Virus record (IMG/VR): IMGVR_UViG_3300043539_001475 | Span: 1-64,000 of that record | Strand: one strand, 5' to 3' | DNA length: 64,000 nt | Source of the DNA: a virus | Shown here: positions 17,343 to 56,076 of the stretch, in pieces | Position numbering within the stretch: the stretch's first letter is position 1 | Layout of the letters: every line of letters begins with the position of its first letter | Notes under the pieces: generated by a model | Databases searched by the model: none | What the model saw: the letters and a program-made list of their open reading frames with translations, nothing else | What the model was told of the DNA's origin: nothing | Made by a program: the position numbers and the translations under genes

Positions 17343-17413
17343 TGGCTTATGGTGTAACGGTAACACAACTGTTTTTGGTGCAGTCTTTCTAGGTTCGAAT
17401 CCTTGTAAGCCAA
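17343..17413 (+). tRNA. tRNA-Gln (UUG)
   Basis: Acceptor stem TGGCTTA/TAAGCCA, anticodon arm ACTGT-TT TTG GT-GCAGT, T loop GGTTCGAATCC; no encoded CCA. Confidence 0.92.
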
Positions 17414-17437
17414 CTAAATTAAACTTAAACAACAAAT

Positions 17438-19115: not shown

Positions 19116-19146
19116 TTTGTAGTGTCATTTGAATTATTTATATTTG
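19116..19146 (+). promoter_or_regulatory. Bacteroidota housekeeping-sigma promoter for the giant-protein operon
   Basis: TTTG 19116-19119, N19, TATATTTG 19139-19146; implies the true start is ATG 19167. Confidence 0.65.
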
Positions 19147-19166
19147 CTACTTATGTTAAAAAAACT

Positions 19167-32800: not shown

Positions 32801-35800
32801 TAAATACGCTAACGGAGGCTCACTTCCATTTATGACAGACCCTACTTTTGGAAACTTTCAAAATCAAGTTTATGCTAAAGGCGGTATTATTGTTACTAAA
32901 ATTAAAGATATACCTAACTTGAAAGACAAGGTAGAAAAAGGACAAGTAACTTATAGAGGTTTGGGCTTAGGAAAATTGGCTGATGACTTTTATAAATTAG
33001 CAGGTCAAAACGGAACTAGAATTAAAGTTGATGGGCAAGAGTATTTTATAACCGATGATGATTTTAAGGAATTGGATTGGGATTTTAAAAATGAAAAATG
33101 GATGAACAAAGTTAGATTTAGTGCATCTGCTAGAAAATATGATATAGGCGGAGTTGTGGTTGAGGATTTAGCTGGTCATACTGGCGGTTCTTTTAGCACA
33201 AATACTCCAACTTTATTAAGTGGAGTTAGCGACACTAATTATGGTGGTCTTACAGGTGAAACTGGCGCTATGTCTGCTGGTGAAATGTTTGCAACAGGAG
33301 GTTCCCTTGAAGAATTTAGCGATAATCAACTTATGATAATGAATCAAAATGTTGAACTAGAACATCACCAAGAGGAATTGGAGGATATTTTAGAGGATAA
33401 GACTGAAATACCTGCTTGGGTAGTCGCTAAAATGGCTACTGCTACTCAAAGCATTTCTGATGTTACGAATTATTTAGACGGAGAAAAAGAAATTTTAGAA
33501 GAAGATGACGAAATCGTAAATGAAACTACTCTTACTTTGGCAAAAAAAAATGAACTAACAAATAAGTTTACAGAAGACGCTTTGGTTAATTTCAAAGGGT
33601 TCTTAAAAGGTATGGAAGATATTGATTTGAGAGATGATTATAGTTTTGACTATAGAGGACAAAGATTTGAAATATACCCAATTGTAAACGCTGACGAAAA
33701 TGGTGTTTTTGATGCCATGTTTAGTATTTTTAATGTGGATGGAGAAAAAGTGGGAGATGTTTCTTATAGTATCTACGGTGGAAAACAAAAGTTTACAGCC
33801 AACTCTGAATTTTTCGGTTGGAATAATACGAAGTTTGCATACGGTGGAAAGACTAAAATAGGGCAATCAATGAAAGAACTTTACATTGGACAAATTGCCT
33901 CATTAACAGGCACAAGAACAGTTGGTATTGAAAAGTTTTTAGATGATAATAAATTAACTGAATCTGAATTATCAAATTTGATGACAGGTATTGGTAGAGG
34001 TATGGTAAAAAGAAACGATTTTGTTACTGCTTTAGTAGGAGAAAAAGGAAACCCTATTCAAAAAGAAATAATTGCCTTTGCAAAATCTGATAAAGCATAT
34101 AAAATGGCTTATGGCGGAGTTGTGGTTGAGGATTTAGCTGGTCATACTGGCGGTTCTTTTAGCACAAATACTCCAACTTTATTAAGTGGAGTTAGCGACA
34201 CTAATTATGGTGGTCTTACAGGTGAAACGGGCGCTATGTCTGCTGGCGAAATGTTTGAAATGGGCGGAGGACTTCCATCTGGTGCAGAACAAAGGTATGT
34301 AGATTATTATTTAAACCCTTCTCCAATTTTAGCAGAAGGAGGTAAAGTAGATTCGTTCATCCCTAATGTTGGTACTATAGACAATTATATGTTAAAATCA
34401 TTGTTGATTAGGAATCCTAAAGTAAAATTGGCTTTGGGTGACAAAGAATTTGAATTTTTAAAAAATAAAAATACTGATTGTATTGGAGTAAGTAGTAAAC
34501 CGTATAACGTAATTGTTACAGATGGTAAAGAAGAGTTTGAGTTAGATATGAAAAAATGGTCGCTTACAAAACCTCTTACAGAAGCAAGAACTAAAATAAA
34601 ATCTCATTATTCTGCAAATTACGCAGAAGGAGGTTCACTAGAAGCCCACGGTATAGAAGAAGGAGATACTTTTATTAAAACAATAGCAGGTAGTATTCAA
34701 AAAGTAAAAGATGTAGACGGAAAAATTGTTTTCATTAACCTATCTACGGGCGAAAGAGATTCTCAACCACCTTTGCCGTTTAAAAAAGGAGGCAATGTTG
34801 ATGGCAAGTGGGTAAACCATAGTCAAGACTACGAGGTTAGATATGCAAAAGGTAAAAACCGACATGGTTACGGTCATATTAAATATTTAGGAGGCGGTGT
34901 AGTTGATGGGGCTTTAAACAAAAAAGTTTATGATTTAGCGAGTAAAAGCGGTTTTTTAATTAGTGATTGGAGTACTTCTGAATATAACTTAATTTTAGCT
35001 CAAGCATTAGTTGAATCTTTAACGGATGCTAATTTCCACAGTGAAGCTAAAGAGGTTGTTGCTAAATTAGAAAAGAAACCGTGGTCTGATGAAATGTATG
35101 AAACAGTTTATTATGACCCTGATAAAGATGTTGTTGAATTTTCTATCACAGTAGCTAGAATTTGTGATTATGGTGGAGATGATATTGTAAACGCATATTA
35201 CTATTTGGCTAAAATGCAAGGCTCAAGCGTTGGTAATTTGATTGACGACTTATTTTTAAGTAAATCTAAAACAACTGGCTATAAAATAAAACCAAGTACT
35301 GTTAGCTTTTCTATATTTGAAAAAATAATTAATGAAAGTAAATCTGAAGAAGATGCTTTTAACAAAGCAAGAGAAGTAAAAGGTATTCCTCTTGAAGTAT
35401 CTAAATCTTTTATGAATAAATACGACCCAAATAGAGAATTAACACCTAGACAATCTTTTTCTAAATTTTATAAAGAAGTAAAAGCAAATGCTTCAAAACC
35501 AAGCACTGTTAGCTTCAAACCAACTGTTGAATTTAACGTAGGTGATGTGGTTTGGAATAAAGAAGATAAAAGATACGGAGTTGTAATGGATAACTACGAC
35601 AATAAGACAGACGGAAATAGAGGTGAAATAAGGCTTGATTCTACTGGCAATACTTATATTTTTGAATACGACAAAAAATCTAATAGAAACGGCTACAATC
35701 TTGTTAAGTTTGGCTCTAGCGAAGATGATGGAGACGGAGATGTTCAAGATATAAAAGACAGTGCCAATAGATTGATAAAATCTCAAATTGAATATAAAGA

Positions 35801-37619
35801 CAAAAAAAAGGAAAAGTATTATAGAGAAATTTTCAAAAGAGTTTTAGGGGGTGAGTTTGATAAAAAAACAAAATCAAACTTAAATCGACATGGATTTAAT
35901 GTAAAAATCGAAGAGGTTTCTGCAACCGAAAACGGAAAAAACAAATTGCTATATGGAGCAAATATCTTTTTTAAAGACGATTTAGTAAGGTTTTTTCCAG
36001 CAGTTAGTGGTGATAGAAAAAAAATAGAAGATAGCATAGAATCTTGGTTTAAAAGTTTAAAATCTTGGGAAAAAAATAATCCTCAATCAAGAAAAAGCGG
36101 AGACTTTGTTGTTTTTTACAATCAGAGAGGTGATGAGGCTAAAATGACTTTTGACAACAAAAAAGATGCCTATGATTTTTACGATGCTTTGAAAAAGGTA
36201 GAAGCTGATAACATTATTGTTTCAGAAGCACCTATTGCAAAAATGATTCCTAATCTTAAAAAATATTACGTTTCTCACGACAATATTGAGAGCGTTACAT
36301 TAAAAAAAGGAGGTAAAGAGGTAACTTACGATGCAAAAGATGTTTTGAACGGTGCTAATATGCTTGAAAAAGGAGGTCGAGTAGAAAAGATAGCAAACTA
36401 TATTTCTAAAAACAATGTAGTTCATGTTGAATTAAAAGACGGAACACACATTAAGCCTTCTAATGGATATTGGATTAAGAAAGGGGCTACTCCAATTAAT
36501 AAAATGGATGAAGGCGGAAACTTAGATAAAGTTAAATGGCAAGATGCAGAAATAGGAGATAGCGCAAGGGTTAAAGATGTGAATAGAATGGGGCTTATAA
36601 TTAAAAATTATGGTAGAAAATTTCATTTAATGTTTCCTAACGGAACAGAAAAAACTTTTGACGCTTCTGATTTAGAGTTTTTCAAATTAGAAAAAGATGA
36701 ATATGAAATGGACGATGATTATAATTACAAAAAAGGCGGAAAAGTAGAAGAAGCAACTATCAATAAAGATGGTATTCGAGTACGTTCTGTTTCACAACCT
36801 AAAAAGAAGCTTACAGAAGCTGAATGGTTGGCTAAATATAGCGAATCTAAAGAAGCTAGAAGCTACAAGTCAGGTGGTGATTTAAGCAAGTACAGCGAGT
36901 TTATACAAGACGAGTTTGCTTCATCAAAAAGATTGGCTAATAAGTTTGCTAAAAAATACAATTTACCGTTCTTAGTTTTGGTTGAAAAAGATAATGATGA
37001 TGAAATTTATGTAAAAGAAGCAAACGGATTTTACGCATTTCCAAAATCATATATCGATGCTCACGATGTGCTTTATGTAACTGCGGATAAAATGGCTGAA
37101 GGTGGAGTAACCTTTGATGAAAAATCAAGCTCAATAGCCAAGAAATTTGTAGGCAAAGCTGTCGAACCTAAATACCAAAAAGAATACGGAAAAGTTTACT
37201 CTAAAGAGGAGGCTAATGAAGTAGGAGACAAGATTGCAGGTAGTATGGTAGCAAAAGAGAAAATGAAAAAAGGTGGTGATTTTCCAGATTACGGAGAAAC
37301 AGTAGATGCAAAAGACATTGATTACGATATGAAAAGTTATTTTAATAGGACTAATAAAAAATTAGTGATAACTACTAAAGATAACAAGAAATCGAATGGT
37401 TCAGTTACCAAATTCTACAATGATTTAATATTTGTGACAAAAGAAAAACACGATATTCCATTAAAAGATATTCGAAATGTAAAAATTTTGGAAGAAAAAA
37501 TGGCTAAAGGTGGTGTGACTAATAGAGGTGGTATTATGCTATTAGCTAAACAGATACGAAAAGAAAACGAAAGTTGGAAAGACGCATTAAAGAGAGCTGG
37601 AGAGCAATTGAGAAAGTAG
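29892..37619 (+). CDS. 2575-aa putative virion core polyprotein with about 28 [FYML]xxGG motifs
   Basis: Repeated YAKGG/FADGG/YANGG/MAKGG etc.; internal duplicated modules; basic termini. Confidence 0.75.
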   Translation: MTIKQKFERIDQSKLEPNQVNALKIVVDFTENFKTKDKEKIKITNDKLDTIIGKLQEKNPDALKPIPTAKKSVGAKKTTSVKTPKRNVFSVAKEIKKAGETFEQAKVRASKMMKQEKEEANKIVKTEMQKLQEYIKEHKELQGISGTDLGRDAVRVAKVGGVRTVTRSGSTTNQYGTFDNKLGRRYSENRENRKDRLAPNYPKYAPLLENGGVVRTFDDVFGKTKIFKEEKVGKFTIGISSGFRDNRHVYIYEGGLGEYNGKSLPKNFRQSPQLSISEANDYYSHLKKKNEKMELGGTFAPNVSNGTQFMGSVYAKGGDLKGFSDNQLMIMNQNNQLEYYQEELEDILEDKTEVPAWVVAEMATATQNISDVTHYLDGEKEILEEEQENLMEQEDEDEVIVNNIPLPSAKKTELTKKFTEDALVNLKGFLKGKEGVELEDDYTFIYNGEKYEIEPIIDSDDDGVLNALFTVYNKDDEEVGEITYMRGSGKQKFNAKSNFFKWSNTKFADGGAIKNQYESRTIENIWNNWTLSQKLHFLSDHSEEVYGSPSVKGQVNNKINEFFGKLIYQKYDDLPLNTKVALIMHTTRGQYAYGGGMEGNNIDAELEDFDIDELDDFETMQYNQFLPSSGKVGALQILINNVEGDYSQLSEELAELAEKQMSSEEYDEATRDMRFERDGYANGGMMAKGGAFKPYGKTKGRYTINYIADSKKQSEIWETKEMAVTNAKRYTKIDEYSDVMVFDDKGTKIDFLYGGSYADGGELKGKFLAEIGVPYNYEKVVEDKFGFTEFLSKTLTKKWFGNGVWRVTMVKPLFEKNYGQKIVVEIDIPLGVTQGGGLDKFDVLEFMSKTLTKKWFGNGVWSVEVVNSYADGGELNGQETINLKSYNIHGQLLDSGKIVVDYDDSTIQFPSGKTLKVVPDREFTYRFQKTQIKASQGIRGLVEFLKEINNEKSPFNPSVTSLFIDFGKDGKYANGGSLPFMTDPTFGNFQNQVYAKGGIIVTKIKDIPNLKDKVEKGQVTYRGLGLGKLADDFYKLAGQNGTRIKVDGQEYFITDDDFKELDWDFKNEKWMNKVRFSASARKYDIGGVVVEDLAGHTGGSFSTNTPTLLSGVSDTNYGGLTGETGAMSAGEMFATGGSLEEFSDNQLMIMNQNVELEHHQEELEDILEDKTEIPAWVVAKMATATQSISDVTNYLDGEKEILEEDDEIVNETTLTLAKKNELTNKFTEDALVNFKGFLKGMEDIDLRDDYSFDYRGQRFEIYPIVNADENGVFDAMFSIFNVDGEKVGDVSYSIYGGKQKFTANSEFFGWNNTKFAYGGKTKIGQSMKELYIGQIASLTGTRTVGIEKFLDDNKLTESELSNLMTGIGRGMVKRNDFVTALVGEKGNPIQKEIIAFAKSDKAYKMAYGGVVVEDLAGHTGGSFSTNTPTLLSGVSDTNYGGLTGETGAMSAGEMFEMGGGLPSGAEQRYVDYYLNPSPILAEGGKVDSFIPNVGTIDNYMLKSLLIRNPKVKLALGDKEFEFLKNKNTDCIGVSSKPYNVIVTDGKEEFELDMKKWSLTKPLTEARTKIKSHYSANYAEGGSLEAHGIEEGDTFIKTIAGSIQKVKDVDGKIVFINLSTGERDSQPPLPFKKGGNVDGKWVNHSQDYEVRYAKGKNRHGYGHIKYLGGGVVDGALNKKVYDLASKSGFLISDWSTSEYNLILAQALVESLTDANFHSEAKEVVAKLEKKPWSDEMYETVYYDPDKDVVEFSITVARICDYGGDDIVNAYYYLAKMQGSSVGNLIDDLFLSKSKTTGYKIKPSTVSFSIFEKIINESKSEEDAFNKAREVKGIPLEVSKSFMNKYDPNRELTPRQSFSKFYKEVKANASKPSTVSFKPTVEFNVGDVVWNKEDKRYGVVMDNYDNKTDGNRGEIRLDSTGNTYIFEYDKKSNRNGYNLVKFGSSEDDGDGDVQDIKDSANRLIKSQIEYKDKKKEKYYREIFKRVLGGEFDKKTKSNLNRHGFNVKIEEVSATENGKNKLLYGANIFFKDDLVRFFPAVSGDRKKIEDSIESWFKSLKSWEKNNPQSRKSGDFVVFYNQRGDEAKMTFDNKKDAYDFYDALKKVEADNIIVSEAPIAKMIPNLKKYYVSHDNIESVTLKKGGKEVTYDAKDVLNGANMLEKGGRVEKIANYISKNNVVHVELKDGTHIKPSNGYWIKKGATPINKMDEGGNLDKVKWQDAEIGDSARVKDVNRMGLIIKNYGRKFHLMFPNGTEKTFDASDLEFFKLEKDEYEMDDDYNYKKGGKVEEATINKDGIRVRSVSQPKKKLTEAEWLAKYSESKEARSYKSGGDLSKYSEFIQDEFASSKRLANKFAKKYNLPFLVLVEKDNDDEIYVKEANGFYAFPKSYIDAHDVLYVTADKMAEGGVTFDEKSSSIAKKFVGKAVEPKYQKEYGKVYSKEEANEVGDKIAGSMVAKEKMKKGGDFPDYGETVDAKDIDYDMKSYFNRTNKKLVITTKDNKKSNGSVTKFYNDLIFVTKEKHDIPLKDIRNVKILEEKMAKGGVTNRGGIMLLAKQIRKENESWKDALKRAGEQLRK

Positions 37620-47162: not shown

Positions 47163-47615
47163 ATGAACCAAGAAAAAACAAACATTACAGATACATCCCG
47201 TATATTACAGCAGGTAGGCAAAACGCTAAATGTAATAGGTACGGAAAAATTACTTGAAATTTTAATCTATTCAAGAAAAAACAATAATCAAATTACCGAA
47301 GAACAAATTAAGTTTTCCGAACAGATAATTCAGATTACTTGCGATGAGTTTGGCATTAGCTTATTAGAATTTTACTCTTATAAAAGAAAAAATAATAGGC
47401 GAAATGCAATAGGCGTTTGCGCTCTTTTTTTACAAGATAATTTAGGGCTAGATAATTCCAACATATCGTATATCCTAAAAAAACCACAGAATCTTACTTG
47501 CATTTACAAAAATGAAATTGTATCTTTAAATCCTAGTCATAAGATGGATATAATAATATTAGACAAAATAAAAAATATTAAAAACAAACTAAATACATTA
47601 AAAAATGAACAATAA
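47163..47615 (+). CDS. DnaA C-terminal-like HTH protein
   Basis: IIQITCDEFGISLLEFYSYKRK..RR...LGLDNSNISYIL. Confidence 0.5.
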   Translation: MNQEKTNITDTSRILQQVGKTLNVIGTEKLLEILIYSRKNNNQITEEQIKFSEQIIQITCDEFGISLLEFYSYKRKNNRRNAIGVCALFLQDNLGLDNSNISYILKKPQNLTCIYKNEIVSLNPSHKMDIIILDKIKNIKNKLNTLKNEQ

Positions 47616-48783
47616 CCAAGAAACAGAAGAAATTTACGCAGAAGTAGTGGAAACAATTGACAACGACTTTTCTCCACTAGACGCACCAGTTAAACAGCGT
47701 AGCTACACACAACATAAGATGGATGCGCACCAAGTTATGCCAGAACTTGAAGAGCCTACTTTTCAAGCGCCTAGCTATACTGATTTTGACGAACCTACTG
47801 AAAAAGAAAAAGAGCCAGAGAGACCTTTCAATGAAGCTTATTCTGAATTAGACGGAAAAGAAAAGACTATGGGTGCAGAAATGATGGCAGAAATGACATT
47901 AGACATATATGAAAAAGGTTGTGGGTTATTAGGTAAAATACCAGAAATAAGCGAGGATAAATTAGACAAGCTAATTTCAGAAGGCGAAATCGATGCTGAT
48001 TCTAAACTTCCAACTGAAAATGGTGAAATCCCAATTAAAGAATTTGCAGTAGATTATAACGAAAGTATTAAGGAAGCGTTCCAAGTTAGTGACGAATTTA
48101 AGGAAAAGGTAAAACCGCCATTAATTCGTGTTTTCAAAAAACGTGGAGTAGGAATGACAGATGAGCAGTTATTGGCTTACTACTTTGTAACAGATTTAGG
48201 AACAAAAGGAGTGCAGGCTTTTATGCTTAAAAAGACTGCTAACAGCATTTTGGACAGCTTGAAGGAAAATACAATTGCAATTAGAGAGGGCAATGCACAA
48301 AGAGAAAGAGCAGAAAGAGCAGAACGAACAGAAAGAACAGAAAGAGCAGAAAGGGCAGAAAGAGCAGAAAGAGCAGAAAGGGCGGAAAGAGCAGAAAGAG
48401 CAGAAAGAGCATCTTCTACAACGCAAAAAACAAATTCAAAACCAATAAAAGTAAATACTACCGATACAGAGCAAACAGACAATGATGATTATGTTGAGGT
48501 TACAGTTATAGACAAACCAAAGACAAAGAGAAAGAATATGACCGACATGCAAAAACAAGTTATGAATTTTTCTGAACCCGAAGAAGAAGGAGTTTATTCT
48601 ATTTTAACTGATAGAGGTGGATTTTCAGATGAAATTGTAATGCCAAATAATATGCCTGTTTTTGGAGATAAAAAGATATTGTCCGAGTTAGAGAGATTGA
48701 GCCAAGAACCAGTTAAGCCAGTTCGTAAAACAAGAGCCAATTCTGTAGATAAAAAAACAACTACTCGAAAATCTAAAAAATAG
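47605..48783 (+). CDS. acidic protein with (ERA)n repeat upstream of the ATPase
   Basis: 9-bp repeats at about 48298-48410; basic C-terminus. Confidence 0.7.
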   Translation: MNNNQETEEIYAEVVETIDNDFSPLDAPVKQRSYTQHKMDAHQVMPELEEPTFQAPSYTDFDEPTEKEKEPERPFNEAYSELDGKEKTMGAEMMAEMTLDIYEKGCGLLGKIPEISEDKLDKLISEGEIDADSKLPTENGEIPIKEFAVDYNESIKEAFQVSDEFKEKVKPPLIRVFKKRGVGMTDEQLLAYYFVTDLGTKGVQAFMLKKTANSILDSLKENTIAIREGNAQRERAERAERTERTERAERAERAERAERAERAERAERASSTTQKTNSKPIKVNTTDTEQTDNDDYVEVTVIDKPKTKRKNMTDMQKQVMNFSEPEEEGVYSILTDRGGFSDEIVMPNNMPVFGDKKILSELERLSQEPVKPVRKTRANSVDKKTTTRKSKK

Positions 48784-49602
48784 ATGGAAGAAAGAGAACC
48801 AAGATTAGGAGTAGCAGTTGGCAGAAAGGGTTGTGGCAAAACTTATACTACCAAACAAATGATACAAAAATATGTACAAGGAAACCCCTCGAAAGGGGTT
48901 ATTCCTCGTAGGGTATTAGTATTAGATGTTAACGATGAGTTTGAGGACATAAGGGCTATTAGGGTTAGTGATGTTATGCGTTTTTCCGCACACCCAAAAG
49001 TAGAAGCTAGAAGGATAAGACCATTGCATGAAAACGGAGTTAGAATGACACTTACTGAAATTCAAGAGGTGCTATTCAAAATCTTAAACGATTATAGAGG
49101 TGGGCTTTTATTGATTGAGGATATTAACAGATACATTTCTGATTATTTGCCTAATGACCTTGTGGGGGCTATATGCACCAACAGACATACGGATACAGAT
49201 ATTATTTTGCATTTTCAATCGGTAGGAAGGATTTCACCTAAAATATGGCAGAACTTGAATTGGATTAGGTTTCACAAAAATACCGATTCAGTAGATAAAC
49301 ACCGTACAAAGTTTGAGGACAAATACGAATTATTGAAATTAGTAGAGAACTATGTTAATGCCGAGTATCATGCAGGAGACCAAAGAATTTATATTTATGT
49401 AGATATAGATGATGAAAAAATAAAGGGAGTTGACCGTAAAAAGTTCGATGCTGTTTTAGACCAATATTTATCTGAAAATTACAGAAAGCTAATTTCCCCA
49501 ATGTTACAATCAAAGGATTTAGGTAAGGGCGCAAAGAAATATACACCTCAAGAAGCGGTGGCAATTCAAAAAGAACGAATAACCAAATATTATTTAACAT
49601 AA
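48784..49602 (+). CDS. A32-like / FtsK-HerA superfamily P-loop ATPase, candidate genome-packaging ATPase
   Basis: Walker A GRKGCGKT, VLVLDVNDEF, Walker B LLLIED, NRH arginine finger, IILHFQ sensor; single domain of 272 aa with no nuclease domain. Confidence 0.75.
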   Translation: MEEREPRLGVAVGRKGCGKTYTTKQMIQKYVQGNPSKGVIPRRVLVLDVNDEFEDIRAIRVSDVMRFSAHPKVEARRIRPLHENGVRMTLTEIQEVLFKILNDYRGGLLLIEDINRYISDYLPNDLVGAICTNRHTDTDIILHFQSVGRISPKIWQNLNWIRFHKNTDSVDKHRTKFEDKYELLKLVENYVNAEYHAGDQRIYIYVDIDDEKIKGVDRKKFDAVLDQYLSENYRKLISPMLQSKDLGKGAKKYTPQEAVAIQKERITKYYLT

Positions 49603-49720: not shown

Positions 49721-49984
49721 ATGGAAAAAAAATTAGAAGAAAAAAAAAGAGGGTTTATTGCAAAATTATTTTGTGAAAAAAACGAACCAAGTTCAAAAAG
49801 ATTTGTTGGCATTATAGGGTCAATAACATTATTTAGTACTTTATTTGCAAACAGCTTTACGCATATAAGCCAAGCACCAAGCGAAGCATTGGTAAACGCA
49901 GTAGCATTATTGTCTTTTGGTGCATTAGGTATCACTGGGGCAGAAAGAATATTTGGTAAAAAAGAAAATAATAACGAACAATAA
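49721..49984 (+). CDS. holin-like 2-TM protein
   Basis: SSKRFVG and two TMs; precedes the endolysin. Confidence 0.6.
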   Translation: MEKKLEEKKRGFIAKLFCEKNEPSSKRFVGIIGSITLFSTLFANSFTHISQAPSEALVNAVALLSFGALGITGAERIFGKKENNNEQ

Positions 49985-49996
49985 AAATTAAAAATT

Positions 49997-50464
49997 ATGA
50001 AATTATCAGAGCATTTGGATTTATCAGAAGTAACAAGAAGTGAAACTGCAAAAAGAAAAGGTATTAGCAACATGCCGACACCAGAGCATTTGGAAAATTT
50101 TAAAAAATTGGCTGAAAATATTTTTGAACCGATTAGAAAACATTTTGGAGTGCCAATTCACATTTCAAGTGGATATAGAAGCAAGGCTTTAAATACTGCT
50201 ATTGGCGGAAGTTTAACAAGTCAACATTGCCAAGGTGAGGCTATTGATATTGATATGGATGGTAGTTCTAATGGGGTTACTAACAAAATGGTATTTGACT
50301 ACATAAAAGCTAATCTAAATTTTGACCAATTAATTTTTGAGTTTGGAACAAAAGATGCACCTGATTGGGTACACGTTTCATTTGAATCAACTGGAAAACA
50401 ACGTAAGCAAATTTTAAGAGCAATTAAAAGTGGTGGTAAAACTGCATACCAACCTTATGCGTAA
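49997..50464 (+). CDS. peptidase M15 endolysin
   Basis: ISSGYRS, SQHCQGEAID, WVHVS. Confidence 0.9.
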   Translation: MKLSEHLDLSEVTRSETAKRKGISNMPTPEHLENFKKLAENIFEPIRKHFGVPIHISSGYRSKALNTAIGGSLTSQHCQGEAIDIDMDGSSNGVTNKMVFDYIKANLNFDQLIFEFGTKDAPDWVHVSFESTGKQRKQILRAIKSGGKTAYQPYA

Positions 50465-50488
50465 CATTTAACAGTTTAAATAGATTTA

Positions 50489-51604
50489 ATGAAAAACCTA
50501 TCAAAAGAAGAGTTATTGAGCAGATTGGAAGCAATCAATAGGAGCAATGCTATTATTTACTTTGACCTGCATGGTACTATATTAGGTGTCAATGACATTT
50601 TTTTAGAAGTAATGGGTTATGGAATAGGTAATCACGAAGAACTTATTGGAAAACACCATAGCACTTTTGTGTGTCAAGAATACGCAAAATCTCTTGAATA
50701 TGAGAAGTTTTGGGACATATTAAGAAGCGGTAAATATTATCAAGGAGAATTTGAACGAAGAAAAAAAGATGGAAGTCTTATCAATCTTCAAGCAACTTAT
50801 AATCCTATTTTTGATGATAGTGGCAAGATTACTAAAATAATGAAAATTGCTACTGATGTTAGTGCTATCGTTAGTAGTAAAAAACAGATAGATGCTATCA
50901 ATAGAAGTACAGCTCTTATTACTTTTAATGTTGAAGGAATCATAACAGATGTTAATTCTATATTTTTAGAAGCTATGGGATATAAATCTAATGAAAAAAC
51001 TAAAATAATTGGAAAGCATCATAGTATTTTTGTAACTTATCAGTATTCACAGTCTGATGAATATAACAATTTTTGGGAAAATTTAAGAAAAGGTAAGTTT
51101 TTTGATGGAATTTTTGAAAGGGTAAAAGTAGATGGTTCTACAATTTATTTACAAGCATCTTATAATCCTATCCTTGATAGTAAAGGCAACATTACAGATG
51201 TGGTTAAAATTGCAACTGATATTACGGAATCTATAAATAGTAAGAAAAAAATAGAGGAACTAACAAATAATTTGAAATTTGAATTGGAAAACTCACAAAA
51301 ACTTAAAGATTCAATAGAAGTCGAAAAAAATATGGCTTTGAATGATTTAGATGTAATGATAAAAAAAAGTCAAAGTGAACTGATAAAAATAATCGTTAAA
51401 TGTGCTTTAGCAGTAATAATTGGTGTTGGAATTGTAACTACTATATTATATTGGGTAGCGATTGTAACAAACAAAGAAACTCAAATAATTGGCTCAACTT
51501 GGAGTAATATGTTTAGTGTTTTATTGACAAACGCATTTTCAATAGTTGGTACAATTATGGGCATTAAATATGCCACTCAAGAAAATAATAATAAAAATAA
51601 TTAA
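50489..51604 (+). CDS. tandem PAS-PAC protein with coiled coil and two C-terminal TMs
   Basis: Two repeats AINRS.A.I.F...G.I..VN..FL..MGY...IGKHHS.FV...FW..LR.G...K.DGS.I.LQA.YNPI...K.ATD, resembling BdlA-type PAS domains. Confidence 0.88.
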   Translation: MKNLSKEELLSRLEAINRSNAIIYFDLHGTILGVNDIFLEVMGYGIGNHEELIGKHHSTFVCQEYAKSLEYEKFWDILRSGKYYQGEFERRKKDGSLINLQATYNPIFDDSGKITKIMKIATDVSAIVSSKKQIDAINRSTALITFNVEGIITDVNSIFLEAMGYKSNEKTKIIGKHHSIFVTYQYSQSDEYNNFWENLRKGKFFDGIFERVKVDGSTIYLQASYNPILDSKGNITDVVKIATDITESINSKKKIEELTNNLKFELENSQKLKDSIEVEKNMALNDLDVMIKKSQSELIKIIVKCALAVIIGVGIVTTILYWVAIVTNKETQIIGSTWSNMFSVLLTNAFSIVGTIMGIKYATQENNNKNN

Positions 51605-51609
51605 AAATT

Positions 51610-52260
51610 ATGATTACAACAATTAACAAAAATAGGATATTTACATGGGTATTACTAATATCTTGCTTGGTACTAGTTTCACAACTATTTCAAAAATGCG
51701 AAAGTGAGAAATTACAATTAGCTAACGTGGAAGCTCTAAATAGTCAATCTAAAGTTTATAAGCTTAAAAATGGACAATTAGTAACTAGCGTTGAAACTTT
51801 ATCTTATAGCAATAGTCAGTTAAAAAACTCTATTGTAATGAAAGATAAAAAAGTTAAAGAGCTAACTAATAAATTTTCTAAAGTTCAATCTCTTACAAAG
51901 TATGTTACAAACACAAAATTTGATACAATAGAGCTTCGATACAAAGATACCGTACCTTGCGTATTTGAAAGAAAAGATAGTTTATTAAAGGAATGGTATC
52001 ATATAGCTTATAAGTCAAATCAAAAGGGAATTGAAATAACCGAACTATCAATACCAGACAGTGTGATTGTAGTTACTGGAATTAAGAGAAAATGGTTTTT
52101 AGGTAAGCAAACACAAACCACAGATATAACTCATGCAAACCCATTTGTTCAGACTAACAATGTTCAACACATTGAAGTAGTAACTCAAAAAAAATGGTAC
52201 GATACTTTCCTATTTAAAGTCGGATTAGGATTTATAGGCGGAGTTTTAATAACTAAGTAA
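51610..52260 (+). CDS. spanin-like protein
   Basis: N-terminal TM, coiled coil, C-terminal hydrophobic end; last gene of the lysis cassette. Confidence 0.5.
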   Translation: MITTINKNRIFTWVLLISCLVLVSQLFQKCESEKLQLANVEALNSQSKVYKLKNGQLVTSVETLSYSNSQLKNSIVMKDKKVKELTNKFSKVQSLTKYVTNTKFDTIELRYKDTVPCVFERKDSLLKEWYHIAYKSNQKGIEITELSIPDSVIVVTGIKRKWFLGKQTQTTDITHANPFVQTNNVQHIEVVTQKKWYDTFLFKVGLGFIGGVLITK

Positions 52261-52289: not shown

Positions 52290-52315
52290 AGCTATCGGAA
52301 ACGGTGGCTTTTTTT
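52290..52315 (+). terminator. intrinsic terminator
   Basis: agctatcg-gaaa-cggtggct followed by a T-run. Confidence 0.7.
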
Positions 52316-52494
52316 GTGCTTTGTAAATTAAAAAAAATCTTTTCAAAAAAATTATTTCAGTTTATTTTTAAATAAATGCCTAGATACTTCTTTCATTTAA
52401 CATAATTTTGGATTGTAATTATATCTGAATATAATTATCATTTAAAATAAGTTTAGTTACAATCATTCTGAAATGAGAAACGAGATTAAAAAGG

Positions 52495-52555
52495 TTACAA
52501 AGATTACAAAGATTACAAAGATTACAAAGATTACAAAGATTACAAAGATTACAAA
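52495..52555 (+). repeat. 9-bp tandem repeat ttacaaaga (6 perfect units + 1 partial)
   Basis: Visible directly. Confidence 0.95.
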
Positions 52556-53487: not shown

Positions 53488-53970
53488 ATGTCAGATTATA
53501 ACGATATTGCATTAAGAAATCCACAAGGAGCTGTAAGCGTTATATCCTCTTTCGGATATGAAATACTAGACCGAAGTAATTTAGGTCAAAGCTTAAACGA
53601 GTTAATAGCTCAAGAAGGTGAGCCAGCTTTAAGAAAAGTTATGGAAATACACCCAGACAAAGATGTTATTTTAGAATTATTTTCTAATAAAACTACAGAA
53701 CCAGAAAAAAACGGGTGTGGCTGTTCGTCTTGTAATGAAAAAAAATCCGATAAAATATTTGAGCGTAACTCTGAAGGAAATTTTGAAAGATATGAAAACT
53801 TCATTAACTTCAACGGAATACTAGAAGAAGCAAAAAAAACTGCTAGCACAACTGCTAACACAAATGCTAACACAACTTCTAATACTAATATTTTAGCACA
53901 TCAAACAAACAATATATTAATAGTCGCAAGTTTATTTATAGCGACTGTTTTAATTCTAAAAATTAAATAA
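53488..53970 (+). CDS. tail-anchored virion protein with CGCSSC motif
   Basis: HPDKDVIL, CGCSSC, ENFINFNG, C-terminal TM. Confidence 0.65.
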   Translation: MSDYNDIALRNPQGAVSVISSFGYEILDRSNLGQSLNELIAQEGEPALRKVMEIHPDKDVILELFSNKTTEPEKNGCGCSSCNEKKSDKIFERNSEGNFERYENFINFNGILEEAKKTASTTANTNANTTSNTNILAHQTNNILIVASLFIATVLILKIK

Positions 53971-53971
53971 A

Positions 53972-54739
53972 ATGAACGAACTATCAAATTTAGGGGCAGA
54001 TGTAATTGTAAACAGCGTTATAGAAAATAGAGGCGATGTTGTAGACTTACTTTTTAAAAACGGAGCAATAGTGCCTGACGACTTAACTAATTTAGAGTTG
54101 TCTCAAATAGTCACAGAGCTTTTAAAAAATTCAAGTAATTTCCAAAATGAATATTTGGATTTTATAACTAATCTTATAATTTCAAAAAATCAGATTGTAA
54201 CGAGTAATTATAGTAACTTAGATGGTGATTTTTACAATGAAGATGAGATGGGTAATTATAATAACGTAGAAGGAACTTTTTACGATGTAGATGAAATGAG
54301 TGATTATAATAACTTAGAAGGAACTTTTTACGATGAAGATGAAATGAGTGATTACAGTAATGCTGTAGGTAGCTTTTCAGATACTTTTAGCGTAGCTCCA
54401 AGTCCTTTTACTCCAAAAAATACAGCTCAGACTAGTCCAAGTACAGGTTCAACAAATACAACAACTACAACGCCAAGAACTGGATTTACGTTAGATAAAG
54501 GCTTAGATATTATAACCAAAGGTTTAAATGCTTTTTTAACTTTAGATACTAACAAAACAAATAGAGCTTTGGCAGATGCTTCTGTAAAAACTACTCAATC
54601 TTCAACGATTATTAGTACGCCAGATACATATACAAAAACTAAAAAATCAAATACTACAACGTATGTTATTTTAGCATTAGTGGGTGTTTTAGTAGTTGGT
54701 GGTGGAATTATGTATGCAGTTAAACGTAAAAATTCTTAA
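53972..54739 (+). CDS. tail-anchored protein with acidic 16-aa repeats
   Basis: YxNxxGxFYxxDEM repeated; C-terminal TM. Confidence 0.7.
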   Translation: MNELSNLGADVIVNSVIENRGDVVDLLFKNGAIVPDDLTNLELSQIVTELLKNSSNFQNEYLDFITNLIISKNQIVTSNYSNLDGDFYNEDEMGNYNNVEGTFYDVDEMSDYNNLEGTFYDEDEMSDYSNAVGSFSDTFSVAPSPFTPKNTAQTSPSTGSTNTTTTTPRTGFTLDKGLDIITKGLNAFLTLDTNKTNRALADASVKTTQSSTIISTPDTYTKTKKSNTTTYVILALVGVLVVGGGIMYAVKRKNS

Positions 54740-54741
54740 TT

Positions 54742-55053
54742 ATGTCTTTTTTTACAACAGACGCAGGACGAAACACTATAGGTGCAGGTATAAACAGTTT
54801 ATTGAGCTTAGGAGTAACAGCAGTAGGTGCTAATCAAGACAGAAAATTATTAGCAGGTCAAGCAAATATTTCGGCTCAACAAAATCAAACCGCAATAGAA
54901 GTCGAGAGAGAAAGAACAAGACAAGCTCAATTAAACCTCGAAGCTTCAAGGGCTAAAGCTCCAGAATCTGGAAGTAAGGCTCTTTACATTGGATTAGCAA
55001 TAGGAGGAGTAGTTATTTTAGGAGGTATTATTTTTGCGGTAACTAGAAAATAG
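54742..55053 (+). CDS. tail-anchored membrane protein
   Basis: Q/A-rich coiled coil, C-terminal TM. Confidence 0.65.
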   Translation: MSFFTTDAGRNTIGAGINSLLSLGVTAVGANQDRKLLAGQANISAQQNQTAIEVERERTRQAQLNLEASRAKAPESGSKALYIGLAIGGVVILGGIIFAVTRK

Positions 55054-55059
55054 AAAAAA

Positions 55060-55284
55060 ATGGGAGCAGTAAAAGGTTACATGGCAGATGTAAAAAGCAT
55101 TGTGAGTAAGGACAAAAGAGATATTCTATTGCATACATCAAAGGCTTCGGTTAACGGAGCTGTCACTGGTCTTGTGCTAGGACTAATGATAGGATATTAC
55201 AAAAACAAAAATGTTTATGTAAGTGGTCTTATAGGAGCCGTAGTTGGCGGTGTTGCCACTGCAATTATTGTATCTAAAAAATAA
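55060..55284 (+). CDS. small 2-TM glycine-zipper membrane protein
   Basis: GAVTGLVLGLMIG and GLIGAVVGG. Confidence 0.65.
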   Translation: MGAVKGYMADVKSIVSKDKRDILLHTSKASVNGAVTGLVLGLMIGYYKNKNVYVSGLIGAVVGGVATAIIVSKK

Positions 55285-55289
55285 AAAAA

Positions 55290-55775
55290 ATGGAAAATAA
55301 AACCACAATTGGTATTGGAGTTGTATTGTTAGCAGGTGTTGGGTATTACTTATACACCAAAAACAAAAAAAATCAAACTCCTTTGGTTAATATGCCAAAT
55401 AAACCTGCTTTACCTACTTTTGATAGGGATAAAGCTTCAAGAGAGTGGGCGGAATTGCAGTTTAAAAGAGAAGCTGAGTTTAGGGCTAAAAATAACGGCG
55501 TGGTTAAGCAAGGTGTCTCTTTGGTTACTGATGCAAAAACTGGAAAAATAACTGAGGTAGCTGTGATGAATAAAATTAAATCAGAGCTTAATCTTTACTA
55601 TGACATGTTAAAAGTTTTAAATTCTATTACAGATGATTCTGATGCTGAATTTATGTTTAATCAATATAAAACAATCTTTAAATCAGGTGATGATAGGAAT
55701 TATAAACCAGACTTAAATACTCAAATTAGAACGGATTCTATTCTAAAAAAATATCCAAGCGCAAGAATCGATTAA
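55290..55775 (+). CDS. N-terminal signal-anchor protein
   Basis: IGIGVVLLAGVGYYLYTKNKK. Confidence 0.65.
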   Translation: MENKTTIGIGVVLLAGVGYYLYTKNKKNQTPLVNMPNKPALPTFDRDKASREWAELQFKREAEFRAKNNGVVKQGVSLVTDAKTGKITEVAVMNKIKSELNLYYDMLKVLNSITDDSDAEFMFNQYKTIFKSGDDRNYKPDLNTQIRTDSILKKYPSARID

Positions 55776-55794
55776 TTAAAATAAAAAACAAAAA

Positions 55795-56076
55795 ATGGAT
55801 AATAAAAAAATTATTATAGGAGTTGGTGCAGTTGTTTTATTAGGTGTAGTTTACTACATGATGACAAAAAAGAAAGCGCCATATACAATACAATGGAAAG
55901 GAGACCCTACTGGGGCTGTTTTTGTAGTTATAAATGGTAAGAAATATGGTTTTATTAGTGGAAAAGCATTTGATGCTTATGGGCGTTCGGAGCCTAAATC
56001 AGTTACAAAAGAAGAAGTAGACGCTATTCCTAGTGGGGGAAGGGTTGACGAACTTGGAAAAGTTGTTCCGAATTAA
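55795..56076 (+). CDS. N-terminal signal-anchor protein with a small beta domain
   Basis: IIIGVGAVVLLGVVYY; GAVFVVINGKKYGF. Confidence 0.65.
   Translation: MDNKKIIIGVGAVVLLGVVYYMMTKKKAPYTIQWKGDPTGAVFVVINGKKYGFISGKAFDAYGRSEPKSVTKEEVDAIPSGGRVDELGKVVPN

What the first reader, a model, noticed from the sequence alone, without database searches (positions are those of the whole stretch)
49721..52260. PAS-PAS-coiled coil-2TM sensor inside the lysis cassette
Seen: gene order is holin-like, M15 endolysin, PAS protein, spanin-like, terminator. The PAS pair resembles BdlA-type chemoreceptor input domains, but there is no MCP, kinase or GGDEF output; two TM helices take its place. Inference: a ligand- or redox-gated holin/antiholin that ties lysis timing to host physiology.
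Basis: partly seen in the sequence, partly recalled or inferred. Interest (0 to 1): 0.7.

Follow-up and report, generated by a model that had tools for sequence, protein, structure and literature searches.

The report
Sensor-fused membrane hairpin in phage lysis cassette
A lake-water virus fuses two PAS sensor domains, through a rigid helix, to an extremely conserved membrane hairpin encoded beside its cell-wall-cutting enzyme. Hundreds of related viruses drive the same hairpin with their own kinase and relay protein, so these viruses probably time host bursting by an intracellular cue, which has not been tested at the bench.

Summary
Window 49721-52260 holds four tightly spaced same-strand genes followed by a terminator-like hairpin: an 87-aa two-TM holin-like protein, an M15 endolysin, a 371-aa PAS-PAS-long helix-two-TM protein, and a DUF6549 protein with a spanin-like layout.

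- 70 of 81 loci carrying the PAS protein have an endolysin within three genes. Four unrelated endolysin families are involved, and the endolysin is the immediate neighbour in 51 loci.
- The C-terminal helix-plus-hairpin is a family of its own, with no match in Pfam, PHROGs or NCBIfam.
- In other viruses the hairpin is fused to one PAS or to a GAF domain. In more than 100 distinct loci it is a short protein sitting behind a phage PAS-histidine kinase and a receiver-only protein.
- Fused forms never have the kinase/receiver pair nearby.
- TM2 is invariant in all 81 loci while third codon positions differ by 38%.
- Linker lengths keep heptad register.

Best reading (about 0.55): a signal-gated membrane switch that sets lysis timing. 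Whether it acts as holin, trigger or antiholin is open. The cofactor is also open, because two of the three flavin contacts named for Aer are replaced.

No publication was found. The scan has noted the same hairpin family before on other DNA.

The parts
49721..49984 (+). 87-aa holin-like protein ('cluster 1'): two TM segments (about aa 28-46 and 56-74), a charged N-terminus and a charged C-tail
   Evidence: ORF. No Pfam or PHROG family. Homologs lie in 39 of the 81 PAS loci and in many kinase-receiver-hairpin loci, usually directly before an endolysin.
49997..50464 (+). Endolysin, peptidase M15 (VanY-like) family
   Evidence: PF08291 at E 2.2e-20; phrog_894 endolysin at E 3.7e-39.
50489..51604 (+). 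371-aa sensor-hairpin protein: N-cap helix, PAS1, PAS2, signalling helix, TM1, short loop, TM2, short polar tail
   Evidence: More than 4900 database relatives, the top 120 being 82-95% identical apart from one 42% cellular PAS hit. Found on 280 viral contigs.
50546..50863 (+). PAS domain 1 (aa 20-125)
   Evidence: Pfam PAS_3/PAS_9 stretch at aa 22-125. The AF2 model shows a beta-sheet fold with pLDDT about 90. His57, Trp75, Glu89 and Ala121 are invariant in 81 of 81 loci.
50912..51238 (+). PAS domain 2 (aa 142-250), ending in the D-I-T motif that leads into the long helix
   Evidence: Pfam PAS_4 stretch at aa 142-248 and the AF2 model. It is 40% identical to the PAS of the phage histidine kinase in split systems, E 1e-25.
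51239..51376 (+). Coiled-coil / signalling helix (aa 251-296), continuous with TM1
   Evidence: AF2 gives a single helix over aa 246-326. The distance from D-I-T to the motif before TM1 is 46 residues in 2xPAS and single-PAS forms and 39 in P0135, a difference of exactly one heptad.
51377..51466 (+). TM1 (aa 297-326)
   Evidence: Hydrophobicity maximum at about aa 301. Helix in the AF2 model. 19 of 29 residues are invariant.
51479..51571 (+). End of the loop plus TM2 (aa 331-361): a block that is invariant across 81 loci and carries a one-sided small/polar stripe
   Evidence: 100% amino-acid identity with 38% mean pairwise difference at third codon positions, including AGT/TCA serine codon switches. 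Nine Ser/Thr/Asn/Gly residues fall within one 180-degree arc, permutation p 0.0016.
51610..52260 (+). DUF6549 protein with a layout like a unimolecular spanin: N-terminal signal/anchor containing L-I-S-C, helical middle part, C-terminal TM
   Evidence: PF20186 at 32.7 bits against a 27.4-bit cut-off; phrog_14010, unknown function. The termini were read directly from the translation. No embedded + strand ORF of 40 aa or more. The spanin role is inferred.
52290..52309 (+). Terminator-like stem-loop followed by a T-run, 30 nt after the last gene
   Evidence: 8-bp stem, 4 GC pairs, T7 tail. This is a consensus match only.

Best explanation
The 371-aa protein is a one-piece, signal-gated membrane switch belonging to the virus's lysis cassette.

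Shown:
- It has two cytoplasmic PAS domains.
- A D-I-T junction leads into one long helix that runs straight into TM1.
- It ends in an N-in/C-in hairpin whose TM2 is invariant and has a polar stripe.
- The hairpin is a separate, portable output module. In other phages it is driven by a single PAS, by a GAF domain, or by a phage histidine kinase plus a receiver-only protein.
- The gene sits next to endolysins of four unrelated families.

Inferred:
- The PAS pair, probably as a dimer, binds a cytoplasmic cue.
- The change is passed down the register-preserving coiled coil to TM1 and alters how TM2 packs.
- That sets the moment of lysis.

I favour a positive mode of action. On the cue, the hairpin would oligomerise through the TM2 stripe and leak or depolarise the inner membrane. 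That is the universal trigger of holins, and it would explain why an unchanging TM2 works beside different holins and endolysins and why the hairpin can sit alone in the holin slot. The negative mode, an antiholin that holds the co-encoded holin until the cue arrives, is nearly as likely.

Confidence that it controls lysis timing at all is about 0.55. Within that, the split is roughly 55:45 for trigger/holin against antiholin.
For: Architecture.

Lysis linkage:
- An endolysin (GH19, PG_binding plus phrog_3000, GH24 or M15) lies within 3 genes in 70 of 81 loci. Five of the 11 exceptions stop at a contig end with no gene downstream of the PAS gene.
- The endolysin is immediately downstream in 38 loci and immediately upstream in 13. 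The 81 loci show 36 different five-gene arrangements.
- The other flanking genes are mostly not homologous between loci.

Output-module status:
- A search with aa 250-371 found 99 clusters at 50% identity, with the module at or near the C-terminus of the intact proteins and varied N-termini.
- Short forms follow a receiver in 55 of 61 and 67 of 70 distinct loci, and a PAS-kinase in 53 of 61 and 65 of 70.
- None of the 81 2xPAS loci and none of the 8 GAF/single-PAS loci has a kinase or receiver nearby.
- The virus's own 101-kb genome has none either.
- The kinase's PAS is 38-40% identical to both window PAS domains.

Constraint: TM2 is invariant despite 38% third-position divergence and has a polar stripe.

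Register: distances from the N-domain to TM1 fall into 7n, 7n-1 or 7n-2 for 22 of 23 distinct lengths. PAS-to-TM1 linkers are 46 or 39 residues.

Holin slot: in L009 and L046 the hairpin protein is the only membrane protein next to a soluble GH19.
Against: - There is no functional data of any kind.
- There is no detectable homology to any holin or antiholin family, including the co-located cluster-1, Phage_holin_4_1 and 115-aa three-TM families.
- At 371 aa it is far larger than known holins.
- Holins usually evolve fast, whereas this TM2 does not vary at all. That could instead point to a conserved host target.
- Most cassettes already carry one or two other holin candidates.
- For short forms the link to lysis genes is weaker: 16 of 61 and 34 of 70 have a lysis gene within three genes.
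- The cue is unknown. Two of the three flavin contacts named for Aer are replaced in both PAS domains.
- Association counts are inflated by shared ancestry of cassettes.
Confidence: 0.55

Rival explanations
1. Sensor-controlled antiholin. The hairpin binds the co-encoded holin in the membrane (the cluster-1 protein in this virus) and keeps it inactive until the PAS domains report the cue. This resembles T4 RI/RIII acting on holin T or P2 LysA, but with a cytoplasmic input.
For: - In the window the gene lies between endolysin and spanin-like gene, with a separate holin-like gene upstream.
- 52 of 81 loci have a cluster-1 or Phage_holin_4_1 gene within three genes, and most have at least one other small TM protein.
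- From the published work on phage 21 holin S21-68 (recalled from the literature, not checked here), blocking externalisation of TMD1 by N-terminal additions turns a two-TM holin into an inhibitor. A large N-terminal cytoplasmic domain would have that effect here.
Against: - The partner holin families vary (cluster 1, holin_4_1, others or none) while TM2 is invariant. That is hard to reconcile with specific TM-to-TM recognition of different partners.
- In L009 and L046 no other membrane protein is nearby.
Confidence: 0.25
2. A membrane effector that does not control lysis. It could act in superinfection exclusion, in protection against lysis from without, or in modulating host respiration, proton motive force or envelope synthesis, and merely travel with the late membrane/lysis gene block.
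For: - The extreme conservation of TM2 fits a conserved host membrane target better than the usual fast-evolving holins.
- About half of the kinase-receiver-hairpin loci have no recognised lysis gene within three genes.
- This virus encodes many other small single-TM proteins just downstream, at 53488-56076.
Against: - Adjacency to endolysins persists through replacement of the endolysin family and through 36 different local arrangements.
- Intergenic gaps to the endolysin are 5-36 nt in 26 of 38 cases, and in 3 more the called ORFs overlap by 38 nt.
- There is no match to defence-related or other named families in Pfam, PHROGs or NCBIfam. PADLOC was not searched.
Confidence: 0.15
3. A constitutive lysis protein whose PAS domains no longer sense anything and serve only as a dimerisation scaffold.
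For: - Many PAS domains have no known ligand.
- The canonical flavin contacts Asn and Arg are missing.
Against: - Pocket-position residues His57/His178, Trp75/Trp196 and Glu89/Glu210 are invariant in 81 of 81 loci, and both PAS domains are under strong purifying selection: first plus second codon positions differ by 0.078 against 0.29-0.32 at third positions.
- The same slot is filled elsewhere by a GAF domain, by a flavin-type PAS that keeps all three Aer contacts (P0135, E 1.4e-23 to MmoS), or by a complete kinase-receiver pair. That makes sense only for a regulated input.
Confidence: 0.05

Closest known systems
T4 lysis inhibition (holin T with antiholins RI and RIII; PMC11413866) and ICP1 TeaA/ArrA (PMC7182436)
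   Same: The phage makes lysis timing conditional on a sensed signal, through membrane proteins encoded with or near the lysis genes. A regulatory soluble domain is attached to a membrane segment.
   Different: - Those systems sense superinfection, through periplasmic RI and a separate small cytoplasmic protein.
- Here the input is a cytoplasmic PAS pair (or GAF, or kinase plus receiver) fused or wired to a two-TM hairpin.
- There is no sequence relationship, and function here is untested.
Pinholin S21-68 and its antiholin S21-71 of phage 21 (class II holins).
   Same: An N-in/C-in two-TM hairpin next to the endolysin gene. One TM is regulatory and the other carries a small/polar stripe (glycine-zipper-like) that could line a small hole. 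Membrane depolarisation serves as the lysis trigger.
   Different: - The protein is 371 aa rather than about 70.
- TM1 cannot leave the membrane because it is tethered to a large cytoplasmic domain.
- No homology was detected.
- This TM2 is invariant, whereas holins are normally highly variable.
LytSR two-component system controlling the cid/lrg holin-like and antiholin-like genes of staphylococci.
   Same: A two-component system is linked to holin-like membrane proteins and murein hydrolase activity. This resembles the split kinase-receiver-hairpin version found in relatives.
   Different: - LytR is a DNA-binding regulator acting on transcription in a bacterium.
- Here the receiver has no output domain and the hairpin protein itself carries a docking or sensor domain, so control is presumably post-translational.
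- The genes here are phage-encoded.
Tandem-PAS redox/oxygen sensor modules: MmoS (3EWK), NifL, Aer, DosP, FixL
   Same: These are the best sequence and structure matches for aa 20-250: 3EWK at E 6e-11 by sequence and 1.5e-16 by Foldseek, followed by DosP, NifL and FixL. A D-I-T junction into a coiled coil is typical of PAS-kinase linkers.
   Different: - The output is a membrane hairpin rather than a kinase, phosphodiesterase or MCP.
- Two of the three flavin contacts named for Aer are replaced.
- The heme ligands were not evaluated.
P2 LysA.
   Same: A membrane protein encoded between the endolysin and spanin genes that modulates lysis timing. The gene position is the same as in this window.
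   Different: LysA has four TM segments and no sensor domain. No homology was detected.

Membership tests
PAS domain (Pfam PAS_3 / PAS_9; TIGR00229) | Profile match above the curated cut-off, found twice in the protein | tested here: met
   PAS_3 at 87.2 bits (cut-off 25.6) and PAS_9 at 80.5 bits (cut-off 27), two stretches each. TIGR00229 at 103 bits.
PAS domain (Pfam PAS_3 / PAS_9; TIGR00229) | PAS fold: antiparallel beta-sheet flanked by helices | tested here: met
   The AF2 model has pLDDT about 90 over both domains. Foldseek's top hits are tandem-PAS structures with probability 1.00.
Flavin (FAD)-binding PAS of the Aer/NifL/MmoS type | His that stacks on the isoalloxazine ring (Aer His53) | tested here: met
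   His57 and His178 align with it and are invariant in 81 of 81 loci.
Flavin (FAD)-binding PAS of the Aer/NifL/MmoS type | Asn contacting the flavin (Aer Asn85; also Asn in MmoS and NifL) | tested here: not met
   Glu89 and Glu210 occupy that position, invariant in 81 of 81 loci.
Flavin (FAD)-binding PAS of the Aer/NifL/MmoS type | Arg next to flavin N5 (Aer Arg115) | tested here: not met
   Ala121 and Ala242 occupy that position, invariant in 81 of 81 loci. By contrast the single-PAS relative P0135 keeps His, Asn and Arg.
Flavin (FAD)-binding PAS of the Aer/NifL/MmoS type | Bound FAD | not testable with these tools
   This needs a spectrum of the purified aa 1-250 fragment.
BdlA / MCP-type chemoreceptor | Methyl-accepting (MCP) signalling domain | tested here: not met
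   No MCPsignal hit in Pfam or NCBIfam. The JGI label 'methyl-accepting chemotaxis protein' reflects the PAS part only.
Holin (class II, two TM) | Two TM segments with N-in/C-in topology and a polar or charged C-tail | tested here: inconclusive
   Two hydrophobic helices at aa 297-326 and 332-358, a cytoplasmic N-domain, and a tail with two Lys and one Glu. The topology is predicted, not measured.
Holin (class II, two TM) | Gene adjacent to the endolysin gene | tested here: met
   Immediate neighbour of an endolysin gene in 51 of 81 loci and within three genes in 70 of 81.
Holin (class II, two TM) | Small size (about 60-150 aa) and membership of a described holin family | tested here: not met
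   The protein is 371 aa. No holin family matched in Pfam, PHROGs or NCBIfam. hhalign against the neighbouring holin-like families gave probabilities of 0.3-4%.
Holin (class II, two TM) | Forms lethal membrane lesions that release or activate the endolysin | not testable with these tools
   This needs expression and complementation assays.
Output module of a two-component system | Encoded directly behind a histidine kinase and a receiver protein | tested here: not met
   Not met for this virus: there is no kinase or receiver in the 101-kb record. It is met for the short-form relatives, with a receiver upstream in 122 of 131 distinct loci. The window protein is the fused alternative.
Unimolecular spanin (for 51610-52260) | N-terminal lipoprotein-type signal together with a C-terminal TM segment | tested here: inconclusive
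   L-I-S-C at aa 16-19 follows a basic N-region, and aa 200-216 are hydrophobic (translation). However, the residues after the Cys are also hydrophobic, so a plain N-terminal anchor is possible. No lipoprotein predictor was available.
Peptidase M15 endolysin (for 49997-50464) | Profile match above the cut-off | tested here: met
   PF08291 at 73.2 bits (cut-off 23.2); phrog_894 at E 3.7e-39.

The most novel reading that the evidence does not exclude
An abundant, undescribed family of phage membrane hairpins is the common output of cytoplasmic sensing in phages. The input can be fused PAS or GAF domains or a phage-encoded kinase plus receiver. Through it, these viruses decide when to lyse from the internal state of the infected cell (redox, energy or a metabolite). 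This would be the first cytoplasmic-sensor-gated lysis switch, and it acts post-translationally in the membrane.
Probability: 0.45. Interest if true: 0.85.

Novelty: new variant of a known kind. Interest (0 to 1): 0.75.

Why it matters
Lysis timing sets phage fitness, and textbooks describe it as an internal holin clock. The only well-studied override is lysis inhibition by superinfection in T-even phages and ICP1.

A sensor domain wired directly to a lysis-cassette membrane protein would mean that many environmental phages read the host's internal state before bursting it. The module is found on hundreds of lake and marine viral contigs and can be exchanged for a complete phage two-component system.

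It also defines a new, very conserved membrane module with no match in Pfam, PHROGs or NCBIfam. The natural domain swaps (2xPAS, 1xPAS, GAF, kinase plus receiver) make it directly testable. It could also serve as a compact ligand-gated lysis or permeabilisation device.

Tried and rejected
- A megablast of the cassette against cultured phage records found no match.
- A tblastn of the whole protein found PAS-only hits in three records. A tblastn of the short form P0150 found none. No cultured phage in that collection carries the hairpin.
- A scan of species-representative genomes found only 4 MAG contigs with mutually inconsistent taxonomy (Flavobacteriales, Saprospira, Ignavibacteria, Saccharibacteria). 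These are probably mis-binned virus contigs. I rejected them as host evidence and as evidence of a cellular origin.
- hhalign of the hairpin profile against the three neighbouring small-membrane-protein families showed no relationship.
- The protein atlas search with aa 250-371 gave no usable hit.
- NCBIfam has no family for the hairpin, the cluster-1 protein, DUF6549 or the accessory proteins c11, c15 and c10.
- A Bacteroidota-type promoter pattern was not enriched (7 found against 4.9 expected) and none lies before the cassette. The sigma-70 scan was also not above background.
The 0.23 word share in one metatranscriptome run was therefore never laid and is not used as expression evidence.
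- The first single-sequence AlphaFold run was poor (pLDDT 62.6) and was replaced by the alignment-based run.
- Four literature searches found no description of PAS- or GAF-fused holin-like proteins or of phage kinase-receiver modules in lysis cassettes. The library is incomplete, so this is not proof of absence.
Full report
**Setting.** The window is the first 64 kb of a 101,210-bp IMG/VR virus record rated complete. It has about 31% G+C and nearly all genes on the + strand. The stretch recurs almost unchanged in lake-water metagenomes dated 2016-2025.

**Observation.** Four ORFs lie at 49721-49984, 49997-50464, 50489-51604 and 51610-52260, separated by 12, 24 and 5 nt. A terminator-like stem and T-run follows at 52290-52309.
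- The first ORF encodes 87 aa with two hydrophobic segments and charged ends. It has no family match.
- The second is a peptidase M15 endolysin (PF08291 at 2e-20, phrog_894 at 4e-39).
- The third has two PAS domains above every curated cut-off and no MCP, kinase or GGDEF domain.
- The fourth matches DUF6549 (32.7 bits against a 27.4-bit cut-off). It has an N-terminal anchor containing L-I-S-C and a C-terminal hydrophobic segment, the layout of a unimolecular spanin. That role is inferred.

An AlphaFold2 model built on a 53-sequence alignment (mean pLDDT 84) shows PAS folds at aa 21-123 and 142-244, one unbroken helix over aa 246-326 and a return helix from aa 332. Its best structural matches are the tandem-PAS sensors MmoS, DosP, LOV-PAS-HK, NifL and FixL.

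**Neighbourhood survey.** The protein has more than 4900 database relatives. The top 120 are metagenomic and 82-95% identical, apart from one 42%-identical cellular PAS protein. It occurs on 280 IMG/VR contigs.

In 80 fetched loci the PAS gene is 77-94% identical to the window's, yet most flanking genes are not homologous to the window's neighbours. After calling and clustering ORFs and annotating the recurrent clusters, the common neighbours were:
- GH19, GH24, M15 and PG_binding_1/phrog_3000 endolysins;
- a Phage_holin_4_1 holin;
- the 80-100-aa two-TM 'cluster 1' family, to which the window's first gene belongs.

An endolysin lies within three genes in 70 of 81 loci. Five of the 11 exceptions end at the contig edge with no gene downstream of the PAS gene. 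The endolysin is the immediate downstream gene in 38 loci and the immediate upstream gene in 13. Across the 81 loci there are 36 different five-gene arrangements. In 26 of the 38 downstream cases the gap is 5-36 nt, and in 3 more the called ORFs overlap by 38 nt.

With one endolysin among roughly 90 genes, a random gene would be that close about 7% of the time. This is my rough estimate from the ORF list. Shared ancestry inflates the raw counts. Still, the linkage has survived exchange of the endolysin family and of almost everything else.

**The hairpin is a module of its own.**
- Across the 81 loci the block aa 331-361 (end of the loop plus TM2) is 100% identical, while third codon positions differ by 38% on average and one serine switches between AGT and TCA codons. 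This is purifying selection, not recent transfer.
- Its nine Ser/Thr/Asn/Gly residues fall on one face of the helix (permutation p 0.0016).
- A full-library search with aa 250-371 returned 99 clusters at 50% identity. The module sits at or near the C-terminus of the intact proteins.
- The N-terminal parts differ: two PAS; one PAS (P0135, P0122); GAF (P0133, PF01590 at 2.5e-17); and, most often, an uncharacterised domain of about 70 aa.
- None of the forms has a Pfam, PHROG or NCBIfam family for the hairpin.

**Split version.** More than 590 viral contigs encode the short form. In those loci the gene is preceded by a 300-700-aa protein with PAS_3 and HATPase_c domains, a histidine kinase, and by a 143-148-aa receiver-only protein.
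- A receiver lies upstream in 55 of 61 and 67 of 70 distinct loci.
- A kinase lies upstream in 53 of 61 and 65 of 70.
- Many of these triads are flanked by cluster-1, M15, PG_binding-Amidase_2, GH19 or holin_4_1 genes, although only 16 of 61 and 34 of 70 have one within three genes.

By contrast, none of the 81 2xPAS loci and none of the 8 distinct GAF or single-PAS loci has a kinase or receiver nearby, and 7 of those 8 sit beside an endolysin. The window's own genome has no kinase, receiver or holin_4_1 gene. The kinase's PAS domain is 38-40% identical to both window PAS domains (E 1e-25).

This is a Rosetta-stone pattern. The same output is either fused to the sensor or wired to it through a phospho-relay.

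**Signal path.** PAS2 ends in D-I-T, the junction motif of PAS-kinase linkers (this identification rests on my recall of the literature), and runs into the long helix.
- The distance from that motif to the conserved motif before TM1 is 46 residues in the 2xPAS clade and in L252-type single-PAS proteins. It is 39 in P0135, exactly one heptad less.
- In short forms the distance from the N-domain to TM1 takes 23 distinct values, and 22 of them are 7n, 7n-1 or 7n-2.
- Such register conservation is expected if a coiled coil transmits a conformational signal to TM1.

**What is sensed?** By sequence the nearest solved domains are the FAD-binding PAS domains of MmoS, NifL and Aer. The Aer structure paper names His53, Asn85 and Arg115 as flavin contacts (PMC9668731).
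- In the window protein the His is kept (His57, His178).
- The Asn position is Glu (89, 210) and the Arg position is Ala (121, 242).
- All of these are invariant in 81 of 81 loci.

The pocket is therefore constrained but is not the canonical flavin pocket. The single-PAS relative P0135 keeps all three contacts and hits MmoS at 1.4e-23, so a redox input is plausible for that branch. For the window protein the cue remains open. Heme ligands were not evaluated.

**Mechanism.** The shown steps are the architecture, the lysis-cassette residence, the modularity and the strong constraint on TM2. The inferred steps are sensing by the PAS pair, transmission down the coiled coil, rearrangement of the hairpin, and a change in the time of lysis.

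I favour a positive action, oligomerisation through the TM2 stripe that leaks or depolarises the membrane, for three reasons:
- Depolarisation triggers holins generally (established from the lambda and phage 21 work, recalled rather than checked here).
- An invariant TM2 works beside different holin and endolysin families.
- In L009 and L046 it is the only membrane protein beside a soluble GH19.

The antiholin mode is nearly as likely. Most cassettes carry other holin candidates, and a large N-terminal domain would lock TM1 in the membrane, which converts the phage 21 holin into an inhibitor. A non-lysis membrane role cannot be excluded.

**Comparison and novelty.**
- It works like T4 and ICP1 lysis inhibition in making lysis conditional (PMC11413866, PMC7182436).
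- It resembles the phage 21 pinholin in topology.
- The split relatives resemble LytSR-cid/lrg in linking a two-component system to holin-like proteins.
- It is not a member of any of these families.
- Four literature searches found no description.
- Earlier notes of this scan describe the same hairpin family on other DNA. I reached the same picture independently from this window before reading them. They are AI notes and do not count as independent support.

**Limits.** There is no experiment, no cultured representative and no host assignment. ORF calling in the loci used a simple longest-ORF rule.

Noticed in passing
window 48303-48411 (inside ORF 47605-48783): A 9-nt tandem repeat of 12 copies with 90% matches encodes an (E-R-A / E-R-T)n run in a 392-aa protein with no family match.
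   Followed up: partly
window 52483-52555: A 9-nt tandem repeat (AGATTACAA, 8 copies, 95% matches) lies in the 430-nt gap between the terminator-like hairpin and the next gene. It reads as (K-I-T)n in a probably spurious 41-aa ORF.
   Followed up: partly
window 53488-56076: A run of six small proteins (74-255 aa), each with a hydrophobic segment near one terminus, sits directly downstream of the cassette. Another note of this scan (e1-6048721) reads the virus as a tailless, membrane-containing Bacteroidota virus. I did not test this.
   Followed up: no
window 48784-49602: A 272-aa P-loop ATPase lies just upstream of the cassette, with weak HerA/DUF87, AAA_22 and phrog_2666 hits. It could be an FtsK/HerA-type packaging ATPase. 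Homologs travel with the cassette only in L002 and L022.
   Followed up: partly
L087-L165, for example L115:3220-3750, L145:4497-4997, L133:1309-1509, L130:3817-4929: Four further uncharacterised proteins recur around the kinase-receiver-hairpin triad: c11 (176 aa), c15 (about 165 aa), c5 (62-66 aa) and a 340-415-aa coiled-coil protein with a TM segment. None has a Pfam, PHROG or NCBIfam family.
   Followed up: partly
P0123, P0154, P0134: The hairpin also appears behind a Cys/His-rich N-terminus (P0123), a GT2 glycosyltransferase fragment (P0154) and a fragment of a further, unidentified N-terminal sequence (P0134). These may be real fusions or chimeric gene calls.
   Followed up: no
window 19122-24923 and 29892-37619: Two giant ORFs of 1933 and 2575 aa.
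   Followed up: no
window 17343-17414: A single tRNA-Gln (anticodon TTG).
   Followed up: no
L011, L012 (contigs of 160 and 272 kb), L217 (430 kb): The module occurs in viral contigs ranging from under 50 kb to more than 400 kb, and in both lake and marine samples. It therefore crosses very different virus backbones.
   Followed up: partly
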